Positions 2,968-10,264 of a stretch of 10,264 bases of DNA are shown piece after piece. A program made the translations under genes and the position numbers. Origin of the DNA: a virus (taxonomy: Duplodnaviria; Heunggongvirae; Uroviricota; Caudoviricetes). A model generated the notes under the pieces. It did not search any database. It was not told where the DNA came from and saw only the letters and a program-made list of their open reading frames with translations. The DNA is taken from IMG/VR virus record IMGVR_UViG_2534681701_000009, one strand, 5' to 3'. Every line of letters starts with the position of its first letter. Position 1 is the first letter of the stretch.

Positions 2968-3030
2968 CGCTGACAAAGCGGAATGTTCTTTAACAGGCTT
3001 TGGCGCTGACAAAGCGCAATTGTTCTTTAA
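2968..3030. repeat. two direct repeats of ~26 bp (CGCTGACAAAGCG-G/CAAT-TGTTCTTTAA) in the int-alpA intergenic region
   Basis: Copies at 2968..2993 and 3004..3030; each begins with a small CGCT...AGCG inverted motif; candidate regulator binding sites. Confidence 0.4.
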
Positions 3031-3134
3031 AACTACTGGATGTCACGCCTAATAGCGTGATCCTGCCGAAATGCAGGGTAGCTCTACCCTTGTGGAGCAA
3101 ACAAACCAAAACAATCTGACTATCTTTTATAAAA

Positions 3135-3163
3135 GACCGCAATATGTTTTTCATATTGTGGTC
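3135..3163. promoter_or_regulatory. 12-bp imperfect palindrome with 5-T spacer (GACCGCAATATG TTTTT CATATTGTGGTC), candidate operator or hairpin upstream of alpA
   Basis: 11 of 12 positions are self-complementary; lies ~90 bp upstream of the alpA ATG. Confidence 0.35.
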
Positions 3164-3268
3164 TTTGGCGTATTCGACATTTGACGCAAATAAAACTCTC
3201 GCCATTCGTTGCAGGAGGGAGTTATTGCGTCATTAGTACAGGATATTAATAAATGGCTAATTACAATT

Positions 3269-3277
3269 CATTAATTC
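3269..3277. repeat. IS1 target-site duplication, left copy (CATTAATTC)
   Basis: Identical 9-mer directly flanks the other IS1 end at 4046..4054; 9 bp is the usual IS1 duplication length. Confidence 0.9.
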
Positions 3278-3292
3278 GGTAATGACTCTAAC

Positions 3293-3796
3293 TTATTGAT
3301 AGTGTTTTATGTTCAGATAATGCCCGATGACTTTGTCATGCAGCTCCACCGATTTTGAGAACGACAGCGACTTCCGTCCCAGCCGTGCCAGGTGCTGCCT
3401 CAGATTCAGGTTATGCCGCTCAATTCGCTGCGTATATCGCTTGCTGATTACGTGCAGCTTTCCCTTCAGGCGGGATTCATACAGCGGCCAGCCATCCGTC
3501 ATCCATATCACCACGTCAAAGGGTGACAGCAGGCTCATAAGACGCCCCAGCGTCGCCATAGTGCGTTCACCGAATACGTGCGCAACAACCGTCTTCCGGA
3601 GCCTGTCATACGCGTAAAACAGCCAGCGCTGGCGCGATTTAGCCCCGACATAGCCCCACTGTTCGTCCATTTCCGCGCAGACGATGACGTCACTGCCCGG
3701 CTGTATGCGCGAGGTTACCGACTGCGGCCTGAGTTTTTTAAGTGACGTAAAATCGTGTTGAGGCCAACGCCCATAATGCGGGCTGTTGCCCGGCAT
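3293..3796 (-). CDS. insB: IS1 InsB reading frame (expressed as InsAB' fusion via -1 frameshift), 167 aa as listed
   Basis: Translation ...[96 protein letters not shown]... matches IS1 InsB; overlaps insA as in IS1. Confidence 0.9.
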
Positions 3797-3990
3797 CCAA
3801 CGCCATTCATGGCCATATCAATGATTTTCTGGTGCGTACCGGGTTGAGAAGCAGTGTAAGTGAACTGCAGTTGCCATGTTTTACGGCAGTGAGAGCAGAG
3901 ATAGCGCTGATGTCCGGCAGTGCTTTTGCCGTTACGCACCACCCCGTCAGTAGCTGAACAGGAGGGACAGCTGATAGAAACAGAAGCCAC
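3715..3990 (-). CDS. insA: IS1 InsA (transposition regulator / N-terminal part of InsAB' transposase), 91 aa
   Basis: Translation [43 protein letters not shown]... is the canonical IS1 InsA with its zinc-finger motif. Confidence 0.93.
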
Positions 3991-4045
3991 TGGAGCACCT
4001 CAAAAACACCATCATACACTAAATCAGTAAGTTGGCAGCATCACC

Positions 4046-4054
4046 CATTAATTC
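4046..4054. repeat. IS1 target-site duplication, right copy (CATTAATTC)
   Basis: Identical to 3269..3277. Confidence 0.9.
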
Positions 4055-4232
4055 GTCTCTCTGAAGTTCAAAGGCGAACTGGTTATAGCAAAGCATGGAT
4101 TTATCGTCTTATTAGTCAGGGGAGGTTCCCTAAACAGGTAAAAATTGGAAGTCGGGCAATTGCTTTTGTTGAGTCTGAAATAGATGAATGGATTGAGAAG
4201 TGTATATTAGAATCTAGAGACGAGGTGGCCTG

Positions 4233-4664
4233 ATGGAAAAGAAAAACCGCCCATTACAGGCGGCTAATTCAGATATTCGTGTATCTGATGTTACGCCCCT
4301 TACAAAATCCCTTCAAGCACCAAAGCGCACACCGAAAAAGCATCGTGCCAGAGTCTATATGCTGCGTACTGGTATAGAGGGATGGACAGAAAATGACATT
4401 CTTCGCTACTGCCGTCTGTCTTCTGGTCGTAACTATGCAACAGAGTTAGAACGCCAGCTTGGAATCACTCTGGAGCGTATCGACGAAAAGAATCCTGATG
4501 GTATCGGAACACACCTTCGCTACCGTTTCTCCTGCCGTGGTGATGTTCTGAAAGTGATCACTCATATTAACCATCTTGCGAACATAAATGATCACAACGG
4601 ACTTTCTCAGCAGGAAATTGCCGACATTCTGAAACTCTACCCGGACGCGTTTAACGCCGCCTAA
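4233..4664 (+). CDS. hypothetical protein, 143 aa, basic N-terminus; function unknown
   Basis: ATG overlaps the alpA stop (TGATG); ORF with protein-like composition; no family recognised by eye. Confidence 0.65.
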   Translation: MEKKNRPLQAANSDIRVSDVTPLTKSLQAPKRTPKKHRARVYMLRTGIEGWTENDILRYCRLSSGRNYATELERQLGITLERIDEKNPDGIGTHLRYRFSCRGDVLKVITHINHLANINDHNGLSQQEIADILKLYPDAFNAA

Positions 4665-4676
4665 CGGAGACTGAAA

Positions 4677-5510
4677 ATGAACATCGAAAAAAGCAGATTA
4701 ATTTCTGAGGCCGCCCCTCATCTGAACGCCTCTCTGGGCACAATTAACGGTAATGAATTTGCCGCAATTGTCCCGGTTATTCCTGGTCATATCGGTGGGC
4801 GTGAAACCAATATTGTTAGCGCAAAAGCGTTACACAAAGCGTTGGGCGTGGGAAAAGACTTCTCTACATGGATCACTGATCGCATCTCTGAATATGACTT
4901 CACCATTGGGCACGATTACTCAGTCCATAAAACAATTTCCCCAAATTTGGGGAAAAGCCCGAATGGCGCGGCTTACAGCAAGATAAAGCACTCTGGCAGA
5001 CCCGGCAAAGACTATCTGTTAAGTGTCGGAATGGCGAAAGAACTGGCAATGATCGAACGCAATGATCAGGGTCGCGCTATCCGCCGTTATTTCATCCAGT
5101 GCGAGGAAGAATTACAGCGTAGCGTGCCTGAAATCGCCGCCCGCTATCGTCGCCAGCTAAAAGCCCGTATCAGTGCCGCAAACAACTTTAAGCCAATGTG
5201 CGATGCGCTGAATATGGCCCGTGCCGAGATGGGTAAAACGACGCAGCAACACCACTACACAAACGAGAGCAATATGATTTCTCGTATCGTTCTTGGTGGG
5301 CTAACTGCTAAGCAGTGGGCGCGGATAAATGGCTATTCTGGCGAACCTCGCGACCATATGAACGCAGAACAGCTTGAGCACCTCTCATATCTCGAAAGCA
5401 CCAATATCACGTTAATTGATATGGGCATGGAATATGAGCAGCGCAAAGGAGAACTCACCCGCCTGTCGCAACGCTGGCTCGCTAAGCGTCTGGAGGCGGT
5501 CCATGTTTAA
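4677..5510 (+). CDS. phage antirepressor-like protein (AntA/Rha-type N-terminal region), 277 aa
   Basis: GGAG 8 nt upstream of ATG; motifs KDFSTWITDRISEYDF and LSVGMAKELAMIERNDQGRAIRRYFIQCEEEL resemble AntA/Rha-family antirepressor domains from memory. Confidence 0.7.
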   Translation: MNIEKSRLISEAAPHLNASLGTINGNEFAAIVPVIPGHIGGRETNIVSAKALHKALGVGKDFSTWITDRISEYDFTIGHDYSVHKTISPNLGKSPNGAAYSKIKHSGRPGKDYLLSVGMAKELAMIERNDQGRAIRRYFIQCEEELQRSVPEIAARYRRQLKARISAANNFKPMCDALNMARAEMGKTTQQHHYTNESNMISRIVLGGLTAKQWARINGYSGEPRDHMNAEQLEHLSYLESTNITLIDMGMEYEQRKGELTRLSQRWLAKRLEAVHV

Positions 5511-5685
5511 GCCGACAGGAACACCACAACCTCAAAAACGCTACAAAGATGCCCACGGAGCACTCGTTACTGTCGAAAGCGTGTCTCACAACCGAGTGAC
5601 GTTTTATCGCGACGGGTATCAATCGCCATGCGTACAACCGCTGGCGCGTTTCATGAAGGAGTTCGCGGAGGTTAACAAATGCTAA
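5503..5685 (+). CDS. small hypothetical protein, 60 aa (MFKPTGTPQ...)
   Basis: ATG embedded in the upstream stop (ATGTTTAA) suggests translational coupling; I prefer this start to the longer 5416 start in the ORF track, which overlaps the upstream gene by 95 nt. Confidence 0.5.
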   Translation: MFKPTGTPQPQKRYKDAHGALVTVESVSHNRVTFYRDGYQSPCVQPLARFMKEFAEVNKC

Positions 5686-6746
5686 CCGTCCAGAAGAAGA
5701 CATTTTCACTGGCTGGTATGTCGCCAAAATCCAGTAATATGACGGCAAAGTCAGGCATTAATACAGCAGATACAAGCAAAGTTTATCATTTGCTGGTGGT
5801 CGGAACGGATGCCTTAACCATATCAGAAATCTCGGGCGATGATATTAGCATTGAGAAGGTCAGCGGCTGCGCCAGAAAATTTCTGGTCGTAGATGATGTC
5901 TTCCGCTCGTGTAGTGACTCCACAAAAACATTCGTCCACGCGCGTGACGTTAACGAAATGAGCGCGATGTACTGTGCATCTGGTGCTTCCAATAGCGAGT
6001 TTTCGGAGTCCATAAAAAAGAGCTTGCCGTTATGCGGCAACACGGTTTATGGTTATAAGGCACCTCATAAAACGGGTGCCGGGATTGGCGTCCTGGTAAA
6101 TCGAATGGCGACATATGACGCGCCGAGCGTCTTTTTTTATGTCGTAGGTCTGACTCACCCATTTTTTGGGCGTTGGTGTATAATCCAGCGCCTTTGTCAA
6201 TCAATGGTGGCTCAGGCAGGGGCTTCTTCGGAAGCGCCGGTATCCATTCGAGCCGGTTACGCCAACCCTGTCTGGGCTACCACCAGCGAAATTGGCGTTT
6301 CCGGTGGTAGCGTTACATGCTATCGAATGGAGGCTGCCACATGCTGGCTACTACCCCTACCCAAAAACCGCAATTTATCTGGATTATCGCCGCAGTTCGC
6401 CGCGATTGCCCGACAATTACCGCCAAAATTCATCATATTGCTGCCGAGTCTGAACGCGATGCTCGCCGTTCTCTGGTGCGCGATCACGTCTGCTTTTTTG
6501 CTGGTCGTATCCGCATGGAGGTGGCTCATGATTAAAACCTACGATGTGCATATGGATCCCCTCGAACGCACAAGCCAGATCATCACACTGACAGAAGTGA
6601 TTAACGACATTCTGGTGAGCAACTCTCCCTCACGAGACGAAAGACTGAAGGCGTTACTCGCGATATTGGATCTCGCCGTTCGTGACGTTCATTTCCTGCT
6701 GGAAGGTGGCGAAATGCCAGGAAAAACGGGGGCAACCAATGAATAA
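5679..6746 (+). CDS. uncertain: 355-codon open frame; plausibly a real coupled gene at its 5' end (5679 to ~6116) but no in-frame stop before 6746
   Basis: ATG overlaps the upstream stop (ATGCTAA) with GAGG 7 nt upstream; frame stays open through a terminator-like hairpin, a promoter-like TATAAT, the structured region and the out-of-frame Icd-like ORF. Probably not one protein. Confidence 0.25.
6117..6138 (+). terminator. candidate rho-independent terminator (GACGC-GCCGA-GCGTC followed by T7)
   Basis: 5-bp GC-rich stem, 5-nt loop, immediately followed by TTTTTTT at 6132..6138; lies at the end of the alpA-to-orf60 coupled module. Confidence 0.4.
6150..6184 (+). promoter_or_regulatory. candidate sigma70 promoter, perfect -10 TATAAT at 6179..6184 with TG two bases upstream and an A/T-rich tract before it
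   Basis: GGTGTATAAT; no canonical -35 at 17-bp spacing, so assignment rests on the -10 and context (just downstream of the terminator, upstream of the structured region and icd-like gene). Confidence 0.4.
6199..6335 (+). ncRNA. candidate C4/CI-type antisense immunity RNA with flanking target sites (approximate bounds)
   Basis: 9-bp stem GCTACCACC (6276..6284) / GGTGGTAGC (6303..6311); TCCATTCGA (6243..6251) is complementary to TCGAATGGA (6323..6331), which overlaps the GGAGG ribosome-binding site of the icd-like ORF; a related ATCAATGGTGG motif sits upstream at 6199..6210. Confidence 0.4.
6341..6535 (+). CDS. Icd-like (host cell division inhibitor-like) small protein, 64 aa
   Basis: GGAGG 7 nt upstream of ATG; [22 protein letters not shown]... 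resembles Icd-like proteins of P1/P4-type immunity regions from memory; stop overlaps the next ATG. Confidence 0.55.
   Translation: MLATTPTQKPQFIWIIAAVRRDCPTITAKIHHIAAESERDARRSLVRDHVCFFAGRIRMEVAHD
6528..6746 (+). CDS. small hypothetical protein, 72 aa
   Basis: ATG overlaps the icd-like stop; first of a chain of coupled ORFs. Confidence 0.5.
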   Translation: MIKTYDVHMDPLERTSQIITLTEVINDILVSNSPSRDERLKALLAILDLAVRDVHFLLEGGEMPGKTGATNE

Positions 6747-6933
6747 CTCAATTAATACCCCTCGCCTTACGTCCGCACTTCAATTAATCGAGCAAGCAGC
6801 GGCTGTCCCGGTTGCTGTCAGTCTTTCGGCTGAAGAAATGGACGCTGCTGATGTCGTGGATGCGATTAAAGCGTGCTCATCTTTGGTTAACGATGCCCGT
6901 GACGAGCTGGTAATTCTTGGGGGTGAAAAATGA
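6739..6933 (+). CDS. small hypothetical protein, 64 aa ([10 protein letters not shown]...)
   Basis: Start embedded in upstream stop as ATGAATAA; preferred over the 6682 start in the ORF track. Confidence 0.5.
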   Translation: MNNSINTPRLTSALQLIEQAAAVPVAVSLSAEEMDAADVVDAIKACSSLVNDARDELVILGGEK

Positions 6934-7193
6934 ATATCAACTTAATTTATCGTCATCCGTGTGAGCTGGAAATTGAATCATTGCTGAGCCGTGAAGAGCC
7001 ATATCCAGACACATTCACTCTTGCAGATCGCACGACTGAACGGCTTACCAGAGCGCGCACAGGTCTGGTTCATGTGATGAATGAGATTCTTCCATCGGTG
7101 GGAGGGGAACAGGCGACAGTAATCACTAGCTGGCTACAAAAAGTTACCTCTCTGATAGATATCAGTTTAATCGATGCGGAGAGTGCGAAATGA
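6930..7193 (+). CDS. small hypothetical protein, 87 aa
   Basis: ATGA start/stop overlap with upstream ORF. Confidence 0.55.
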   Translation: MNINLIYRHPCELEIESLLSREEPYPDTFTLADRTTERLTRARTGLVHVMNEILPSVGGEQATVITSWLQKVTSLIDISLIDAESAK

Positions 7194-7411
7194 CCAACAT
7201 CCAGCTCATTGAAGCACAATGTCGCATCGAACAGGTTCAGACTGTTTTAGGGTTCTGGCTTGAAGGGGCCAGCCCCAGCAACAGAGACAAGTTAATGATT
7301 GGCGCGGTTATGTCACTGCTCAATGGCGTACCAGAAGCTATTCAGGAAGCGGACGAATTGTTGGGCAAATATGAGTTACAGAATCATTCAGGCGAGGCGA
7401 AACATGAATAA
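7190..7411 (+). CDS. small hypothetical protein, 73 aa
   Basis: ATGA start/stop overlap with upstream ORF. Confidence 0.55.
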   Translation: MTNIQLIEAQCRIEQVQTVLGFWLEGASPSNRDKLMIGAVMSLLNGVPEAIQEADELLGKYELQNHSGEAKHE

Positions 7412-8006
7412 TTTCTTAACTTTCCATGCAGAAGCAACGCCTGACGGCGTAAACATCATGTACCGCAGCAACGATGGCATGACAGAACGCGTTGAGACCG
7501 TCTCATATATTGATGCCGTAAATCGTCTGGATGCCGGGGATTATGACGATAAACCAGATGAAGGTATGTCAATACATCTCGCTATTGCCGATGGCGGCAA
7601 CCAGGGATATTTCGATTACACATCACAGCATAACGTCATTATGTGGAGATGGCTGATCGCAACAGTATTCATGCTGGAAATGAGAGAGGAAAACGGTACT
7701 GTCAGCATCATTGATGATACTGGCAATCCTTCCGAAGTGGCTGTTTATTCCAACGGCATCGTCGCCATGCCGCTGTATCCAGTAGCAGAGCGCCTCGCTA
7801 TGGCAAACAACATTGAGGGCGCGATGATAGAACGTTTTGGCATCGAGTCTGGCACAGAACGCGCCATCATTTTCTACAGAGCCATGATGGATGTGGAACA
7901 AGGAGCACTGACTCCATTTGGTCGTGAAACGCTTGCTGAACTTCACAACAGCTTTATAGCTGAACTGAATGAAAACGGCATGCCAGCGGAACCAGTGACG
8001 CACTGA
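7404..8006 (+). CDS. hypothetical protein, 200 aa (MNNFLTFHAEATPDG...)
   Basis: Start embedded in upstream stop as ATGAATAA, the same 8-nt junction as at 6739; preferred over the 7299 start, which would overlap the upstream ORF by 113 nt. Confidence 0.65.
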   Translation: MNNFLTFHAEATPDGVNIMYRSNDGMTERVETVSYIDAVNRLDAGDYDDKPDEGMSIHLAIADGGNQGYFDYTSQHNVIMWRWLIATVFMLEMREENGTVSIIDDTGNPSEVAVYSNGIVAMPLYPVAERLAMANNIEGAMIERFGIESGTERAIIFYRAMMDVEQGALTPFGRETLAELHNSFIAELNENGMPAEPVTH

Positions 8007-8016
8007 GGATGGAGCC

Positions 8017-8358
8017 ATGATTACTAAAAATTTCCGACTGAATGCGCTGGCAAATAAGTATGCGTCGGCACTGTATAACCACATTACCTCCACCAGCGGC
8101 GGGGACTATTTCATGGTTGATGCGGACGGCGAGGCCGTCCGTGTGGAAATCGTCAATGGAGTAAAAGGCGTTCGCAGCCTGATCGATAGCTACACACTGG
8201 CAGCCATGAAAGTGTTCTACCCGCAGTGGGAAACCGTGGGGATCGAGCTTCTTGAACGTTGCGTCACTAAGGACGGATTGACTGACGTCGGGCGTGAGAT
8301 ATGGCAAAGCATGGTTAATGACATGGGCGCAACTGTAGCGGGAGGTTCTCATGCGTGA
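8017..8358 (+). CDS. hypothetical protein, 113 aa
   Basis: GAGGATGGAG ribosome-binding site directly upstream of ATG; no family recognised. Confidence 0.65.
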   Translation: MITKNFRLNALANKYASALYNHITSTSGGDYFMVDADGEAVRVEIVNGVKGVRSLIDSYTLAAMKVFYPQWETVGIELLERCVTKDGLTDVGREIWQSMVNDMGATVAGGSHA

Positions 8359-8722
8359 AAATGCAGAAATGGCGCTTAGCTCCGCAATCGGAGAGCAGGT
8401 GGCAAAGATTGCTGGTGCTGTGTGGATTCATAACCTTCATTCTACTGGTGAAGAGAAAATGGTAATTCAGACGCCAGAGGGACGCACCATTACTACATCT
8501 CTGAAGCCGTCAGATGTTTGTGATCTGATTTGCGCATTCATGTACCCAGCAATGAGGACTGTCCACGGCGATAAGTGGAAACTTGCGACAACCGCTGAAT
8601 TTGATATGTGGCTAAACAATGATGGCATGCTGACTGATTACGGAATAACCAAGTGGCAGATGCTGGTTAGCCATATCGCAAACGCTATAGACCACGTGGG
8701 GTACGGTGATGCGAAACATTGA
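8351..8722 (+). CDS. hypothetical protein, 123 aa
   Basis: ATG overlaps upstream stop (ATGCGTGA); no family recognised. Confidence 0.65.
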   Translation: MRENAEMALSSAIGEQVAKIAGAVWIHNLHSTGEEKMVIQTPEGRTITTSLKPSDVCDLICAFMYPAMRTVHGDKWKLATTAEFDMWLNNDGMLTDYGITKWQMLVSHIANAIDHVGYGDAKH

Positions 8723-9336
8723 TCTTATCCGTCAGGTTATCAGTGCGTCTGAAAACAACTGGCCTCATGTGCTGGGCTGCCTGAACATAAATGTCCCTGA
8801 CTCTCCGCGCCGTCATGCTCCCTGCCCTGCATGTGGGGGCAAAGATCGATTCCGGTTCGATGACAACGGGCGCGGTAGCTTCATCTGTAATCAGTGCGGC
8901 GCTGGTGATGGGCTGGATTTAATTAAACGCGTAAATAACTGCGACACAACAGAGGCGGCGCTTCTTGCCGCTGATGTTCTGGGTATTGATTACCGGACAA
9001 CGGAAACACCAGAAGCCACCAGCCAGAAACGGGAACAACTGGAAACCGAGCGCCAGCGACGCGAACAGGAGCGCCTGAAAAGGGCAGAGAAGGACGAACA
9101 ACAAAGACGGGATACGTTTTCCCGTCAGTTTGATGACATGCGCAGAAAGGCTGTAAACGGCAAATCTGATTATCTGGTTGCGAAAGGGGTAGGTGATTTT
9201 ACATTCCCCGTGTTGCCCGATGGATCTCTGTTGCTGGCGCTGGTGGATAAATCCGGCGCAGTAACAGCAGCACAGACTATTACCTCACATGGTGAAAAAA
9301 GACTCCTGACAGGTTCAGCAAAGCGGGGGGCATATC
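8706..9336 (+). pseudogene. P4 alpha-type DNA primase, N-terminal ~210 codons only (zinc-binding domain and start of TOPRIM), truncated by IS186
   Basis: CPACGGKDRFRFDDNGRGSFICNQCGAGDGLDL is a primase zinc-ribbon motif; P4-type primase/helicases are ~700-800 aa, whereas this frame terminates a few codons inside IS186. Confidence 0.8.
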
Positions 9337-10264
9337 CATAAGCGCTAACTTAAGGGTTGTGGTATTACGCCTGATATGATTTAACGTGCCGATGAATTAC
9401 TCTCACGATAACTGGTCAGCAATTCTGGCCCATATTGGTAAGCCCGAAGAACTGGATACTTCGGCACGTAATGCCGGGGCTCTAACCCGCCGCCGCGAAA
9501 TTCGTGATGCTGCAACTCTGCTACGTCTGGGGCTGGCTTACGGCCCCGGGGGGATGTCATTACGTGAAGTCACTGCATGGGCTCAGCTCCATGACGTTGC
9601 AACATTATCTGACGTGGCTCTCCTGAAGCGGCTGCGGAATGCCGCCGACTGGTTTGGCATACTTGCCGCACAAACACTTGCTGTACGCGCCGCAGTTACG
9701 GGTTGTACAAGCGGAAAGAGATTGCGTCTTGTCGATGGAACAGCAATCAGTGCGCCCGGGGGCGGCAGCGCTGAATGGCGACTACATATGGGATATGATC
9801 CTCATACCTGTCAGTTCACTGATTTTGAGCTAACCGACAGCAGAGACGCTGAACGGCTGGACCGATTTGCGCAAACGGCAGACGAGATACGCATTGCTGA
9901 CCGGGGATTCGGTTCGCGTCCCGAATGTATCCGCTCACTTGCTTTTGGAGAAGCTGATTATATCGTCCGGGTTCACTGGCGAGGATTGCGCTGGTTAACT
10001 GCAGAAGGAATGCGCTTTGACATGATGGGTTTTCTGCGCGGGCTGGATTGCGGTAAGAACGGTGAAACCACTGTAATGATAGGCAATTCAGGTAATAAAA
10101 AAGCCGGAGCTCCCTTTCCGGCACGTCTCATTGCCGTATCACTTCCTCCCGAAAAAGCATTAATCAGTAAAACCCGACTGCTCAGCGAGAATCGTCGAAA
10201 AGGACGAGTAGTTCAGGCGGAAACGCTGGAAGCAGCGGGCCATGTGCTATTGCTAACATCATTA
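9337..10264 (+). mobile_element. IS186 (IS4 family), left end and first 928 bp; continues beyond window
   Basis: Begins CATAAGCGCTAACTTAAGGGTTG (IS186 terminal repeat as I recall it), inserted next to a GGGGGG run; contains the IS186 transposase N-terminus. Confidence 0.85.
9392..10264 (+). CDS. insL: IS186 transposase, N-terminal 291 codons; partial, open to the window end (not in the ORF track because no stop is reached)
   Basis: Translation MNYSHDNWSAILAHIGKPEELDTSARNAGALTRRREIRDAATLLRLGLAYGPGG... matches IS186 transposase from memory; frame is open for exactly 291 codons to base 10264. Confidence 0.85.
   Translation, partial: MNYSHDNWSAILAHIGKPEELDTSARNAGALTRRREIRDAATLLRLGLAYGPGGMSLREVTAWAQLHDVATLSDVALLKRLRNAADWFGILAAQTLAVRAAVTGCTSGKRLRLVDGTAISAPGGGSAEWRLHMGYDPHTCQFTDFELTDSRDAERLDRFAQTADEIRIADRGFGSRPECIRSLAFGEADYIVRVHWRGLRWLTAEGMRFDMMGFLRGLDCGKNGETTVMIGNSGNKKAGAPFPARLIAVSLPPEKALISKTRLLSENRRKGRVVQAETLEAAGHVLLLTSL

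What the first reader, a model, noticed from the sequence alone, without database searches (positions are those of the whole stretch)
4233..5685. Uncharacterised coupled module: 143-aa basic protein, AntA-like antirepressor, 60-aa protein
Three ORFs, translationally coupled to each other and to the alpA stop (TGATG, ATGTTTAA, ATGCTAA junctions), sit between the regulator and the immunity locus. Only the 277-aa protein has a recognisable (antirepressor-like) signature. In P4 the small protein epsilon derepresses the helper prophage by binding its repressor; an AntA-type protein here could play a similar helper-manipulating role, and its partners are unknown. This is the most plausible place in the window for an undescribed function, but I cannot assign one from sequence alone.
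Basis: partly seen in the sequence, partly recalled or inferred. Interest (0 to 1): 0.6.

Follow-up and report, generated by a model that had tools for sequence, protein, structure and literature searches.

The report
Early regulatory genes of a phage satellite
The three genes are real and conserved, but they are the first genes of the helper-induced operon of an already published type of E. coli phage satellite (EcCIMP1-like), in a zone known for shuffled DNA-binding regulators. Only the 143-aa protein, always fused to the master regulator alpA, is still a complete unknown.

Summary
The three ORFs (4233-4664, 4677-5510, 5503-5685) and their junctions exist as described. They are under purifying selection (dN/dS 0.16, 0.16, 0.29).

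They are not a self-contained module. They open an unbroken chain of 12 translationally coupled ORFs from alpA to the primase. The element sits at tRNA-Thr and is orthologous to the published satellite EcCIMP1 (ISME J 2025). The region matches the "Bro zone" defined for Gram-negative PICIs in 2023.

- **ORF1** (143 aa): restricted to Enterobacterales islands and absent from 50,697 phage genomes. It abuts or overlaps an AlpA-family gene in almost every locus examined. It is probably a winged-helix protein.
- **ORF2**: an AntA-domain protein in a swappable slot that also takes Bro-N or Rha domains. "Antirepressor" is only a family name; the one dissected relative, Listeria AriS, is not an antirepressor.
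- **ORF3**: a short member of the DUF4222/RgdR family, which has a DNA-binding relative in EcCICFT073.

Most likely all three are induced-only, basic DNA-binding regulators. Their coupled translation probably carries ribosomes into the ash/eta ORF and overrides the C4/CI RNA immunity locus.

In this window the operon is probably dead: IS1 splits alpA and IS421 truncates the primase.

Interest is modest.

The parts
3253..3277 (+). alpA 5' fragment: start codon plus 8 codons (MANYNSLI), cut off from the rest of the gene by IS1
   Evidence: Comparison with intact alpA in L001 6985-7188. Pfam Phage_AlpA hits the intact protein at 71 bits.
3278..4045 (-). IS1 (768 bp) inserted in alpA; 9-bp target duplication cattaattc at 3269-3277 and 4046-4054
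   Evidence: insA/insB ORFs, sequence, IS1 annotation under matches.
4054..4233 (+). alpA 3' fragment (codons 9-67 plus stop); the stop TGA shares its A with the ORF1 ATG
4233..4664 (+). ORF1, 143 aa, basic (pI 9.5). Island-specific protein coupled to AlpA. Variable N-terminal tail, conserved PKKHRARxYML motif, then a predicted helix-helix-helix-hairpin (winged-helix-like) core.
   Evidence: - Family size: 611 homologue clusters; 93 representatives at 50% identity.
- No hit in the phage collection.
- Always placed next to an AlpA gene.
- dN/dS 0.155.
- AlphaFold2 pLDDT 61 overall, with the core at 66-86.
- Pfam HTH_91 is sub-threshold in 5 of 30 members, best E 2.8e-4.
4677..5510 (+). ORF2, 277 aa. 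Bro-network protein with four parts: leader peptide MNIEKSRLISEAAP, AntA domain (residues 47-129), a long helix, and a helical C-terminal domain (about residues 166-275).
   Evidence: - Pfam AntA, E 2.6e-21.
- phrog_5817 and phrog_2657.
- PADLOC PDC-S22 on residues 166-266, E 4e-11.
- The slot swaps with Bro-N and Rha types.
- dN/dS 0.160.
- AlphaFold2 model is poor except residues 196-275.
5503..5685 (+). ORF3, 60 aa. DUF4222 / RgdR-family small basic protein; core domain only.
   Evidence: - Pfam DUF4222, 87 bits.
- 39% identity and E 5e-13 to C1493 of EcCICFT073.
- dN/dS 0.285.
5679..6746 (+). ash/eta-like ORF of 355 codons. It is coupled to ORF3 and runs across the whole RNA immunity locus. 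The frame stays open in the heteroimmune EcCIMP1 copy.
   Evidence: - Pfam Phage_ASH on residues 124-232.
- ORF open in MP1 despite a diverged cassette.
- P4 eta precedent quoted in PMC10111431.
6060..6140 (+). isrK-like leader carrying the upstream C4 target sites (TTGGCGT 6085-6091, TCGAATGG 6101-6108) and a terminator-like hairpin followed by a T-run (6117-6140)
   Evidence: Rfam isrK, 67 bits; terminator scan; complementarity search.
6200..6287 (+). C4/CI-type antisense immunity RNA
   Evidence: Rfam RF01695, 79.5 bits, full length. Loops are complementary to the flanking targets. Compensatory changes are seen in MP1.
6292..6535 (+). Downstream C4 targets (6292-6298 and 6323-6331, the latter over the GGAGG Shine-Dalgarno sequence) and the Icd-like ORF (6341-6535)
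   Evidence: NCBIfam phage_ICD_like, E 3.7e-20; annotated as Icd-like in MP1.
6739..8722 (+). Six further coupled small ORFs, all acidic (pI 4.1-5.6), leading to the primase
   Evidence: PHROG families of unknown function.
8709..9311 (+). N-terminal part of the TOPRIM/DUF927 primase (918 aa in intact relatives), truncated by IS421 from about 9312

Best explanation
The three ORFs are the promoter-proximal genes of the AlpA-activated, helper-induced early operon of an EcCIMP1-type phage-inducible chromosomal island (PICI) integrated at tRNA-Thr. This region is the "Bro zone" of Gram-negative PICIs.

**Shown**
- The genes are real, conserved and transcribed in the same direction as alpA.
- No promoter-like or terminator-like site lies between them on that strand.
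- They lie upstream of the P1/P4-type C4/CI RNA immunity locus.
- Every gene from alpA to the primase is linked by an overlapping stop/start or a gap of 10-12 nt with a Shine-Dalgarno sequence.

**Inferred: timing of expression**
- In an intact element the three proteins are made only when the helper phage switches on PalpA. The alpA-lux reporter in EcCIMP1 behaves this way.

**Inferred: protein functions**
- All three proteins are small, basic nucleic-acid binders.
- ORF1 is a winged-helix-like partner of AlpA. It probably acts with or after AlpA on island promoter or attachment-site DNA.
- ORF2 is a Bro-network regulator. Its exchangeable N-terminal DNA-binding domain (AntA here; Bro-N or Rha elsewhere) sets target specificity on helper or island DNA.
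- ORF3 is an RgdR-type DNA binder of low specificity.

**Inferred: role of coupling**
- The coupling has a job of its own. Ribosomes handed on from alpA through ORF1-3 enter the 355-codon ash/eta ORF.
- There they translate across the C4 target sites, the leader terminator, the C4 gene and the icd ribosome-binding site.
- This prevents immunity-RNA pairing and termination, so replication genes can be expressed, as described for vis-eta in P4.

**In this window**
- The system is probably silent. IS1 separates alpA's promoter and start codon from the chain, and IS421 truncates the primase.
For: **Identity of the element**
- 99.5% identity to intact islands with int-alpA-hyp-AntA-DUF4222-ash-...-primase.
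- Same gene order in E. coli MP1 EcCIMP1. That island is helper-inducible and needs alpA for excision and transfer (PMC11773190).
- The four-zone PICI organisation, with Bro-network proteins plus C4/isrK RNAs between alpA and the replication genes, comes from PMC10111431.

**Real genes**
- dN/dS of 0.155, 0.160 and 0.285.

**Single transcription unit**
- No plus-strand promoter-like or terminator-like hit lies within 4233-5685.
- The first plus-strand sites are a promoter-like hit at 5851-5880 and a terminator-like hit at 6117-6140.

**Coupling chain**
- for this window; conserved junctions across genera.

**Immunity locus is functional in design**
- C4 and isrK hits.
- Two-part complementarity on both sides of C4.
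- Compensatory changes in all three sites in MP1.
- The 355-codon ORF stays open in both specificities.
- The Icd-like ORF has its Shine-Dalgarno sequence under a C4 target.

**ORF1**
- Adjacent to AlpA in all 33 loci, whatever the AlpA subtype or the downstream gene.
- Helix-helix-helix-hairpin core and weak, repeated HTH_91 hits.

**ORF2**
- AntA domain.
- Swaps with Bro-N and Rha types in the same slot, behind the same leader peptide.
- AriS shows the same three-way alternation, and its AntA domain acts in gene regulation (PMC9043618).

**ORF3**
- Homology to C1493/RgdR.
- RgdR binds DNA non-specifically (PMC3378721).
Against: - No biochemical or genetic data exist for any of the three proteins.
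- No shared DNA motif was found upstream of alpA across ORF1-bearing islands.
- The ORF2 model is unusable for the N-terminal 195 residues.
- The antitermination role of coupled translation is carried over from P4 via a secondary source. It has not been tested in any PICI.
- Functional PICIs such as EcCICFT073 lack ORF1 and AntA, so these genes are not universally required.
- Klebsiella islands keep alpA-ORF1-AntA without any C4/isrK RNA. The trio therefore cannot exist only to feed ribosomes into an immunity locus.
Confidence: 0.55

Rival explanations
1. ORF2 is a true antirepressor that binds and inactivates the repressor of a resident helper prophage, as P4 epsilon does with the P2 C repressor. 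The arriving or induced satellite could then trigger its own helper. ORF1 and ORF3 would be accessory partners.
For: - Pfam and PHROG label the family as "anti-repressor".
- The AntA domain occurs in Stx-phage Ant proteins, whose loss weakens induction.
- The gene is expressed in the induced phase, when helper manipulation would pay.
- EcCIMP1 is otherwise helper-friendly: its alpA_1 can stand in for the helper's Xis.
Against: - In the Stx phage Phi24B Ant, the similarity to the P22 antirepressor is mainly in the C-terminal domain (82% identity over the last 104 residues). ORF2 gave no hit to that domain family (P22_AR_C) or to ANT/KilAC.
- AriS has an AntA domain but is not an antirepressor.
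- Deleting EcCIMP1 changed neither Kapi1 titre nor CI-lux. EcCIMP1 increases superinfection immunity rather than reducing it.
- The slot is filled by Bro-N or Rha proteins, or is skipped, in sister islands.
- ORF2 is expressed downstream of alpA, which itself needs helper induction first.
Confidence: 0.2
2. One or more of the three proteins is an anti-phage or interference effector. It would account for the EcCIMP1-dependent superinfection immunity against the helper, for example by repressing early genes of the incoming phage.
For: - EcCIMP1 adds to superinfection immunity in lysogens. PADLOC and DefenseFinder found no known defence system in it.
- The ORF2 C-terminal domain matches the PADLOC defence-candidate model PDC-S22 at E 4e-11. 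So does its Edwardsiella phage homologue.
- Overexpressing the AriS AntA domain lowers phage lytic gene expression about 10-fold.
- PLE CapR is a precedent for a satellite regulator that represses helper genes.
Against: - PDC-S22 is only a candidate identified by genomic association, and the match covers about 100 residues.
- The immunity phenotype has not been mapped to any gene.
- The C4 RNA, the Icd-like gene and the acidic ORFs are equally good candidates.
- In an uninduced cell these genes should be off.
Confidence: 0.15
3. ORF3, and perhaps ORF1, mainly act on host genes as cargo regulators of virulence or motility, as reported for RgdR. They would not act on the satellite-helper cycle.
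For: - RgdR and C1493 activate LEE1 and lower motility when expressed.
- ORF3 is a homologue.
- PICIs of this group carry PerC-like host regulators.
Against: - ORF3 lacks the RGD motif and the basic C-terminal extension of RgdR. It corresponds to the 63-aa "truncates".
- It sits inside a coupled, helper-induced operon rather than under its own promoter.
- DUF4222 genes overlap the primase gene in EcCICFT073. In Klebsiella islands they lie one gene upstream of it. This points to an island-internal role.
Confidence: 0.1

Closest known systems
EcCIMP1 of E. coli MP1 (Pick, Stadel and Raivio, ISME J 2025; PMC11773190), genes after alpA (EcCIMP1_003)
   Same: - Same integration site: tRNA-Thr between proA and yagU.
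- Same order: int, alpA, 143-aa hypothetical, 277-aa AntA/AntB, 60-aa DUF4222, ash, Icd-like, small ORFs, TOPRIM/DUF927 primase.
- Near-identical sequence outside the immunity cassette.
   Different: - The window copy carries a different C4 RNA specificity, with matching changes in both target pairs.
- It has IS1 in alpA and IS421 in the primase, so it is probably immobile.
- The paper tested alpA, int, alpA_1 and the PerC-like gene, but none of the three genes studied here.
The "Bro zone" of Gram-negative PICIs (Mageeney et al., NAR Genom Bioinform 2023; PMC10111431)
   Same: - Lies between the integration zone (int, alpA) and the replication zone.
- Holds domain-swapping Bro-network proteins (AntA, Phage_ASH) and C4/isrK immunity RNAs.
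- I observed the domain swapping directly.
   Different: - That description does not single out the ORF1 family. It is not a Bro-network protein, yet it is the most constant gene of the zone in this lineage.
- It also does not single out DUF4222.
Phage P4 late-promoter leader: vis - eta/kil - CI RNA
   Same: - An AlpA-family gene is translationally coupled to a long ORF (Pfam Phage_ASH) that contains the CI-type RNA and its targets.
- An internal promoter-like site and a leader terminator are present.
- Translation from the upstream promoter is reported to prevent termination (as summarised in PMC10111431).
   Different: - Three extra genes sit between the alpA homologue and the eta-like ORF.
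- No sid, psu or delta genes are annotated in intact relatives. Helper-type genes there are P22-like ejection proteins.
- An Icd-like gene follows the RNA, as in P1.
Phage P1/P7 immI operon (c4 RNA - icd - ant)
   Same: - C4-family RNA with two loop sequences complementary to sites upstream and downstream.
- The downstream site covers the ribosome-binding site of an Icd-like gene.
- An AntA-family gene is in the same operon.
   Different: The AntA-family gene lies upstream of the RNA and its targets. It is therefore outside C4 control and under AlpA control instead (my reading of gene order).
AriS of Listeria phage phi10403S (Azulay et al., Cell Rep 2022; PMC9043618)
   Same: - N-terminal AntA/AntB domain.
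- Family members alternate between AntA, Bro-N and pRha N-domains, exactly the three seen in this slot.
- Annotated as an antirepressor but shown to be a regulator.
   Different: - The AriS C-terminal domain is ANT/KilAC, which inhibits the SOS response.
- The ORF2 C-terminal domain gives no Pfam ANT hit, and its C-terminal half alone is not significantly similar.
RgdR (ECs1581) / C1493 of EcCICFT073 (Flockhart et al., Mol Microbiol 2012; PMC3378721)
   Same: - DUF4222 domain.
- Encoded on P4-like/PICI islands.
- Small and basic.
- 39% identity over the domain.
   Different: - ORF3 has 60 aa rather than 99.
- It lacks the RGD motif and the C-terminal extension.
- It follows the AntA gene, whereas C1493 overlaps the start of the primase gene.
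   Same: A satellite early-operon product that could act on the helper.
   Different: - None of ORF1-3 gave any match pointing to epsilon. ORF1 has no hit in the whole phage collection.
- Epsilon lies downstream of the immunity RNA in P4 (from my own knowledge), whereas these genes lie upstream.
- I did not compare sequences with epsilon directly.

Membership tests
Gram-negative PICI (EcCIMP1 type) | Integrase next to a tRNA attachment site, with alpA downstream in the same orientation and unidirectional transcription | tested here: met
   tRNA-Thr 1369-1441, int 1610-2824, alpA 3253-(IS1)-4233, and all later ORFs on the + strand.
Gram-negative PICI (EcCIMP1 type) | Primase/replication module downstream, and no phage lysis or full structural module | tested here: met
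   The primase starts at 8709. Intact relatives carry only ejection-protein-like genes, DUF2824 and a PerC-like gene.
Gram-negative PICI (EcCIMP1 type) | Excision, replication and transfer only when a helper phage is induced | not testable with these tools
   Shown for EcCIMP1 with Kapi1 (PMC11773190). The window copy has a disrupted alpA and primase.
PICI Bro zone | Located between alpA and the replication genes; contains Bro-network Pfam domains | tested here: met
   AntA at 76 bits and Phage_ASH at 105 bits. Bro-N and Rha variants occupy the same slot.
PICI Bro zone | Immunity RNAs of the C4/isrK type within the zone | tested here: met
   Target complementarity and covariation.
AntA/AntB family (PF08346) | Pfam domain above the gathering score | tested here: met
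   76.4 bits against 27, residues 47-129.
Functional antirepressor (P22 Ant / P1 Ant / P4 epsilon type) | Domain known to carry repressor-binding activity (P22_AR_N/C or ANT/KilAC) | tested here: not met
   No such Pfam hit even at E up to 10 on the C-terminal half. The C-terminal half scores only E about 0.1 against ANT-domain proteins.
Functional antirepressor (P22 Ant / P1 Ant / P4 epsilon type) | Binds and inactivates a helper or phage repressor | not testable with these tools
   Indirect evidence only: an EcCIMP1 deletion did not change Kapi1 CI-lux or titre.
AriS-like dual regulators | [quoted passage not shown] | tested here: inconclusive
   - The N-domain criterion is met.
- ORF2 aligns end to end with an AntA+ANT phage protein (E 5e-38). 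The signal comes from the N-terminal half.
- The C-terminal half alone is not significant, and the AntA+ANT phage proteins do not hit the PDC-S22 model.
DUF4222 / RgdR family | DUF4222 domain above the gathering score, and homology to RgdR orthologues | tested here: met
   87 bits against 27. E 5e-13 to C1493.
DUF4222 / RgdR family | RGD motif and full 99-aa length, as needed for LEE activation in RgdR | tested here: not met
   The positions in ORF3 equivalent to RgdR 20-22 read P-Q-K. ORF3 ends at the domain boundary.
Winged-helix DNA-binding proteins (ORF1) | Recognisable wHTH profile or fold match | tested here: inconclusive
   - HTH_91 scores 15 bits against a cut-off of 27. It is hit by 5 of 30 diverse members, best E 2.8e-4.
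- The predicted topology is H-H-H-beta-beta.
P4-like satellite in the strict sense | sid, psu and delta capsid-size and late-control genes | tested here: not met
   None is annotated in intact relatives downstream of the primase. The window ends before that region.
P1/P4-type antisense RNA immunity | C4/CI RNA with complementary target sites upstream and downstream on the same transcript | tested here: met
   Compensatory three-site covariation between the window and MP1.

The most novel reading that the evidence does not exclude
ORF1 may be a missing core component of a large PICI lineage: a satellite-specific DNA-binding protein made in fixed ratio with AlpA. It would determine what the AlpA switch does, for example excision directionality, shut-off of PalpA, or recognition of helper DNA.

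Alternatively, the ORF1-ORF2 pair may be the unmapped determinant of EcCIMP1's lysogen-specific immunity to its helper. That would be a new kind of satellite-encoded defence.
Probability: 0.15. Interest if true: 0.6.

Novelty: new member of a known kind. Interest (0 to 1): 0.3.

Why it matters
How Gram-negative PICIs sense and then reprogramme their helpers is still unknown beyond "AlpA is the activator".

- The gene most faithfully attached to alpA in this widespread Enterobacterales lineage has no known function and no phage homologue. It is therefore a sensible first knockout for anyone working on EcCIMP1.
- The analysis warns that published alpA deletions may also affect translation of the coupled ORF1-3.
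- It also warns that the "antirepressor" annotation on these islands is only a family name.
- For the genome scan itself, the result is mostly deflationary: the locus is a decayed copy of a described element.

Tried and rejected
- **P22 tailspike head-binding domain.** ORF1 residues 101-141 gave weak hits (PDB E 0.6-1.2, Pfam Head_binding E 0.12). This was tempting because the helper is P22-like. The hits vanished with family profiles, so I rejected them as chance.
- **PDB sequence and profile searches** for all three proteins found nothing.
- **Fold search for ORF2.** The best hit was Deinococcus DdrC at TM 0.25, from a model with pLDDT 47. I disregarded it.
- **ANT/KilAC identity of the ORF2 C-terminal domain** was not supported.
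- **Last homologue search**, using the ORF2 C-terminal half, returned only fragments of the same family. No new domain partners appeared.
- **Shared DNA motif upstream of alpA** in 27 ORF1-bearing islands: none was present in more than 7.
- **NCBIfam, PHROG and PADLOC** gave nothing for ORF1.
- **ORF1 as a small terminase.** I considered this because the island has no recognisable packaging gene. Nothing supports it except a non-significant BFVD hit.
Full report
**1. What is in the window**

The window runs as follows.
- proA (1-1254) and tRNA-Thr (1369-1441).
- A tyrosine integrase (1610-2824).
- An AlpA-family gene that starts at 3253 and is interrupted after codon 8 by an IS1 (3278-4045; 9-bp duplication cattaattc). 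It resumes at 4054 and ends at 4233.
- The three ORFs of the finding.
- A 355-codon "ash family" ORF (5679-6746) that contains Rfam isrK (6060-6137) and a C4/CI antisense RNA (6200-6287).
- An Icd-like ORF (6341-6535).
- Six small ORFs.
- The first 200 codons of a TOPRIM/DUF927 primase, cut by IS421 from about 9312.

**2. Check of the observation**

They are genuine genes.
- Median pairwise dN/dS is 0.155 for ORF1 (34 sequences), 0.160 for ORF2 (21) and 0.285 for ORF3 (18).
- The 2-kb region is present at 80% coverage or more in 484 of 5,426 complete E. coli genomes.

The junction architecture is conserved far beyond E. coli, in 33 loci from about 25 genera of Enterobacterales.
- The ORF1 start lies within 0-4 nt of the stop of an AlpA-family gene in all but one locus (L035, where the start is unclear). 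It is usually a 1-nt TAATG or TGATG overlap.
- ORF1 is followed by TAACGGAGCC, a few bases, then ATG.
- The following gene ends in CTGGRGG-N5-8-ATG-N2-4-TAA. That sequence carries the Shine-Dalgarno sequence and start codon of the next gene.

Four corrections apply.
- ORF1 and ORF2 are separated by 12 nt and do not overlap.
- The 60-aa protein has a clear family signature (DUF4222).
- Coupling continues through 11 junctions to the primase: 9 overlaps of 1-14 nt and 2 gaps of 10-12 nt with a Shine-Dalgarno sequence.
- In this copy alpA is broken by IS1.

**3. What the element is**

Intact relatives such as E. coli EC17GD31 have the same order without the insertion sequences. Downstream of the primase they carry DUF2824, a "phage DNA ejection protein", a 906-aa lytic transglycosylase and a PerC-like gene.

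The same island in E. coli MP1 is EcCIMP1.
- It is 20 kb and sits at tRNA-Thr between proA and yagU.
- It is induced and transduced by the P22-like phage Kapi1.
- Its alpA is required for excision and transfer and is switched on by helper induction (PMC11773190).
- The authors annotated the "antirepressor" and noted that it, Ash and the primase are the most conserved genes among relatives. They did not test it or its neighbours.

Mageeney et al. (PMC10111431) had already described a four-zone plan for Gram-negative PICIs: Integration, Bro, Replication and Late. The Bro zone holds domain-swapping Bro-network proteins (AntA, Bro-N, Rha, Phage_ASH and others) and C4/isrK immunity RNAs. The finding is that zone.

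**4. ORF1**

This is the part that remains unknown.
- No Pfam, NCBIfam, PHROG or PADLOC family reaches significance.
- There is no PDB relative by sequence or by profile.
- There is no tblastn hit in 50,697 phage genomes.
- The family is sizeable but narrow: 611 clusters at 90% identity, yet only 93 representatives at 50% identity in 1.8 billion proteins. Named sources are essentially all Enterobacterales, apart from a few records that look mis-assigned.
- Its defining property is position. It is always the gene after alpA, whichever of at least three AlpA subtypes precedes it and whichever gene follows it.

A diverse alignment (25-65% identity) shows three regions.
- A variable N-terminal tail.
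- A conserved basic stretch (PKKxRA).
- A core, GxTENDIL..C.LSSGRNY.TELER.L.I.L.R..E.NPDGIG.H.RYR.

I read ORF1 as a probable winged-helix DNA-binding protein made together with AlpA. This is an inference, not a demonstration.

**5. ORF2**

Residues 47-129 are an AntA domain (E 2.6e-21). The C-terminal part has no Pfam family. It matches phrog_2657 and the PADLOC candidate model PDC-S22 (residues 166-266, E 4e-11). Only residues 196-275 were modelled with any confidence, as helices.

The slot after ORF1 is a cassette.
- About 20 of the species-level loci carry this AntA type (269-280 aa).
- About 9 carry a Bro-N type (195-200 aa).
- One carries a Rha type (231 aa).
- One goes straight to ash.
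- Most share the same first 14 residues (M-x-I-E-K-S-R-F-N-S-E-A-A-P). All share the same 3' coupling junction.

The only AntA-domain protein dissected experimentally is Listeria AriS. Its family shows the same AntA, Bro-N and pRha alternation. Its AntA domain modulates the lytic genes of its own phage, and its ANT/KilAC domain inhibits the SOS response. It is not an antirepressor (PMC9043618).

ORF2 aligns end to end with an AntA+ANT phage protein (E 5e-38). Its C-terminal half alone is not significantly similar to ANT, so the architecture is only partly shared.

In the Stx phage Phi24B Ant, the similarity to the P22 antirepressor lies mainly in the C-terminal domain. ORF2 has no such domain.

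**6. ORF3**

ORF3 is DUF4222 at 87 bits. It is 39% identical (E 5e-13) to C1493 of EcCICFT073. C1493 is the orthologue of RgdR (ECs1581).
- RgdR is a 99-aa, pI 10 protein of a P4-like island.
- It binds DNA non-specifically, activates LEE1 and lowers motility (PMC3378721, PMC10877973).

ORF3 is the bare domain. It lacks the RGD motif and the C-terminal extension, like the 63-aa "truncates" mentioned in that paper.

DUF4222 genes are a regular but mobile piece of these islands.
- In EcCICFT073 the gene overlaps the primase start.
- In Klebsiella islands it sits one gene before the primase.
- In about 10 of my loci it follows the AntA gene directly.

**7. The immunity locus and the point of coupling**

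The C4 RNA has two segments, ACGCCAA and TCCATTCGA. They are complementary to TTGGCGT and TCGAATGG(A) in two places.
- Upstream: 6085-6108, inside isrK.
- Downstream: 6292-6331, the second site lying over the GGAGG of the Icd-like ORF.

A terminator-like hairpin with a T-run sits at 6117-6140. The only plus-strand promoter-like site between alpA and the RNA is at 5851-5880, inside the ash ORF.

EcCIMP1 of MP1 differs from the window almost only here. Both RNA segments and all four target sites are changed in a compensatory way, for example CCTTGTAC paired with GTACAAGG. The two islands are therefore heteroimmune, and the pairing is under selection. Despite that divergence the 355-codon ORF stays open in both.

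[quoted passage not shown] Translation of eta from the upstream late promoter prevents CI-dependent termination.

The same logic fits here, with ORF1-3 interposed.
- Transcripts from the internal promoter would stop at the leader terminator and yield the immunity RNA.
- Transcripts from PalpA would carry a train of ribosomes through ORF1-3 into the ash ORF and on to the replication genes.

This is inference by analogy. It cannot be the sole reason for ORF1 and ORF2, because Klebsiella islands keep alpA-ORF1-AntA without any C4 or isrK RNA.

**8.

An epsilon-like antirepressor is possible but rests on a family name. Four points count against it.
- Domain content.
- The AriS precedent.
- The position of the gene downstream of a regulator that itself needs helper induction.
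- The EcCIMP1 phenotypes: no change in Kapi1 titre or CI-lux, and increased rather than decreased superinfection immunity.

A role in that unmapped immunity phenotype is an equally live alternative, hinted at by the PDC-S22 match.

One practical caveat for the literature: my search of the EcCIMP1 text found no mention of alpA complementation. Given the 1-nt overlap, part of the alpA-deletion phenotype could come from reduced translation of ORF1-3.

**9. Verdict**

The locus is a decayed, heteroimmune copy of a described satellite, and the region is a described zone.

The residual novelty has two parts.
- The ORF1 family has no known function, no phage homologue and an obligatory link to alpA.
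- The slot gene has a cassette structure.

Interest is 0.3. Novelty is a new member of a known kind.

Noticed in passing
window 3269-4054: An IS1 (768 bp, minus orientation) is inserted after the first base of alpA codon 9, with a 9-bp target duplication (cattaattc). It separates PalpA and the start codon from the whole coupled operon. No complete E. coli genome in the collection has IS1 at exactly this position.
   Followed up: partly
window 9312-10264: An IS421 (IS4-like) insertion truncates the 918-aa TOPRIM/DUF927 primase after about 200 codons. With the IS1 hit, the island copy is probably immobile.
   Followed up: partly
window 6085-6331 versus L044 (E. coli MP1): The C4 RNA loops and both pairs of target sites differ between this island and EcCIMP1, with fully compensatory changes. 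The flanks are nearly identical. This is a clean natural example of a swap in immunity specificity (heteroimmunity) in a PICI.
   Followed up: yes
window 6341-6535: An Icd-like ORF (NCBIfam E 3.7e-20) lies inside the ash ORF in another frame. Its GGAGG Shine-Dalgarno sequence lies under a C4 target site, as in the P1 c4-icd arrangement. It is not annotated in the EC17GD31 RefSeq record.
   Followed up: partly
window 6048-6374: The stretch of the "ash family protein" that matches Pfam Phage_ASH (residues 124-232) coincides with the isrK and C4 RNA genes. Much of the conservation in that protein family may therefore be RNA conservation. The frame nevertheless stays open across two immunity types.
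   Followed up: partly
window 4233-5685 versus 6739-8722: There is a sharp charge split along the operon. The three proteins upstream of the immunity RNA are basic (pI 9.3-9.5). The six small proteins downstream are acidic (pI 4.1-5.6) and have no known family.
   Followed up: no
L002 9038-15233; L044 4632-10827: Downstream of the primase, intact relatives carry DUF2824, a "phage DNA ejection protein" and a 906-aa lytic transglycosylase-domain protein. These are P22-type ejection-protein genes, which are unusual cargo for a satellite.
   Followed up: no
L012-L040, first codons of the gene after ORF1: Two alternative leader peptides (M-x-I-E-K-S-R-F-N-S-E-A-A-P, or M-x-x-x-N-x-x-x-T-G-Q-G-x-x-H) are combined freely with AntA, Bro-N or Rha bodies. 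The leader is therefore itself a swappable segment or a recombination joint.
   Followed up: partly
L003 6644-6710; L005 6641-6708: The Rfam int-alpA RNA motif (RF02996) is present between int and alpA in Serratia and Klebsiella relatives. These also have a 317-323-aa ORF of no known family there. The motif is not found at gathering score in the window.
   Followed up: no
L018, L029: Typical Enterobacterales islands appear in records labelled Chryseobacterium sp. and a Paenochrobactrum MAG. This is probably contamination or mis-binning.
   Followed up: no
L042 5926-6777 (Edwardsiella phage EPP-1): The only full-length ORF2 homologue in the phage collection (63% identity) sits alone near the end of a 38.6-kb phage genome, without ORF1 or alpA.
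   Followed up: partly
window 2990-3205 (minus strand): A 71-aa reverse ORF lies between int and alpA. It may correspond to EcCIMP1_002, the small protein mis-annotated as UvrB-like that is discussed in the EcCIMP1 paper.
   Followed up: no
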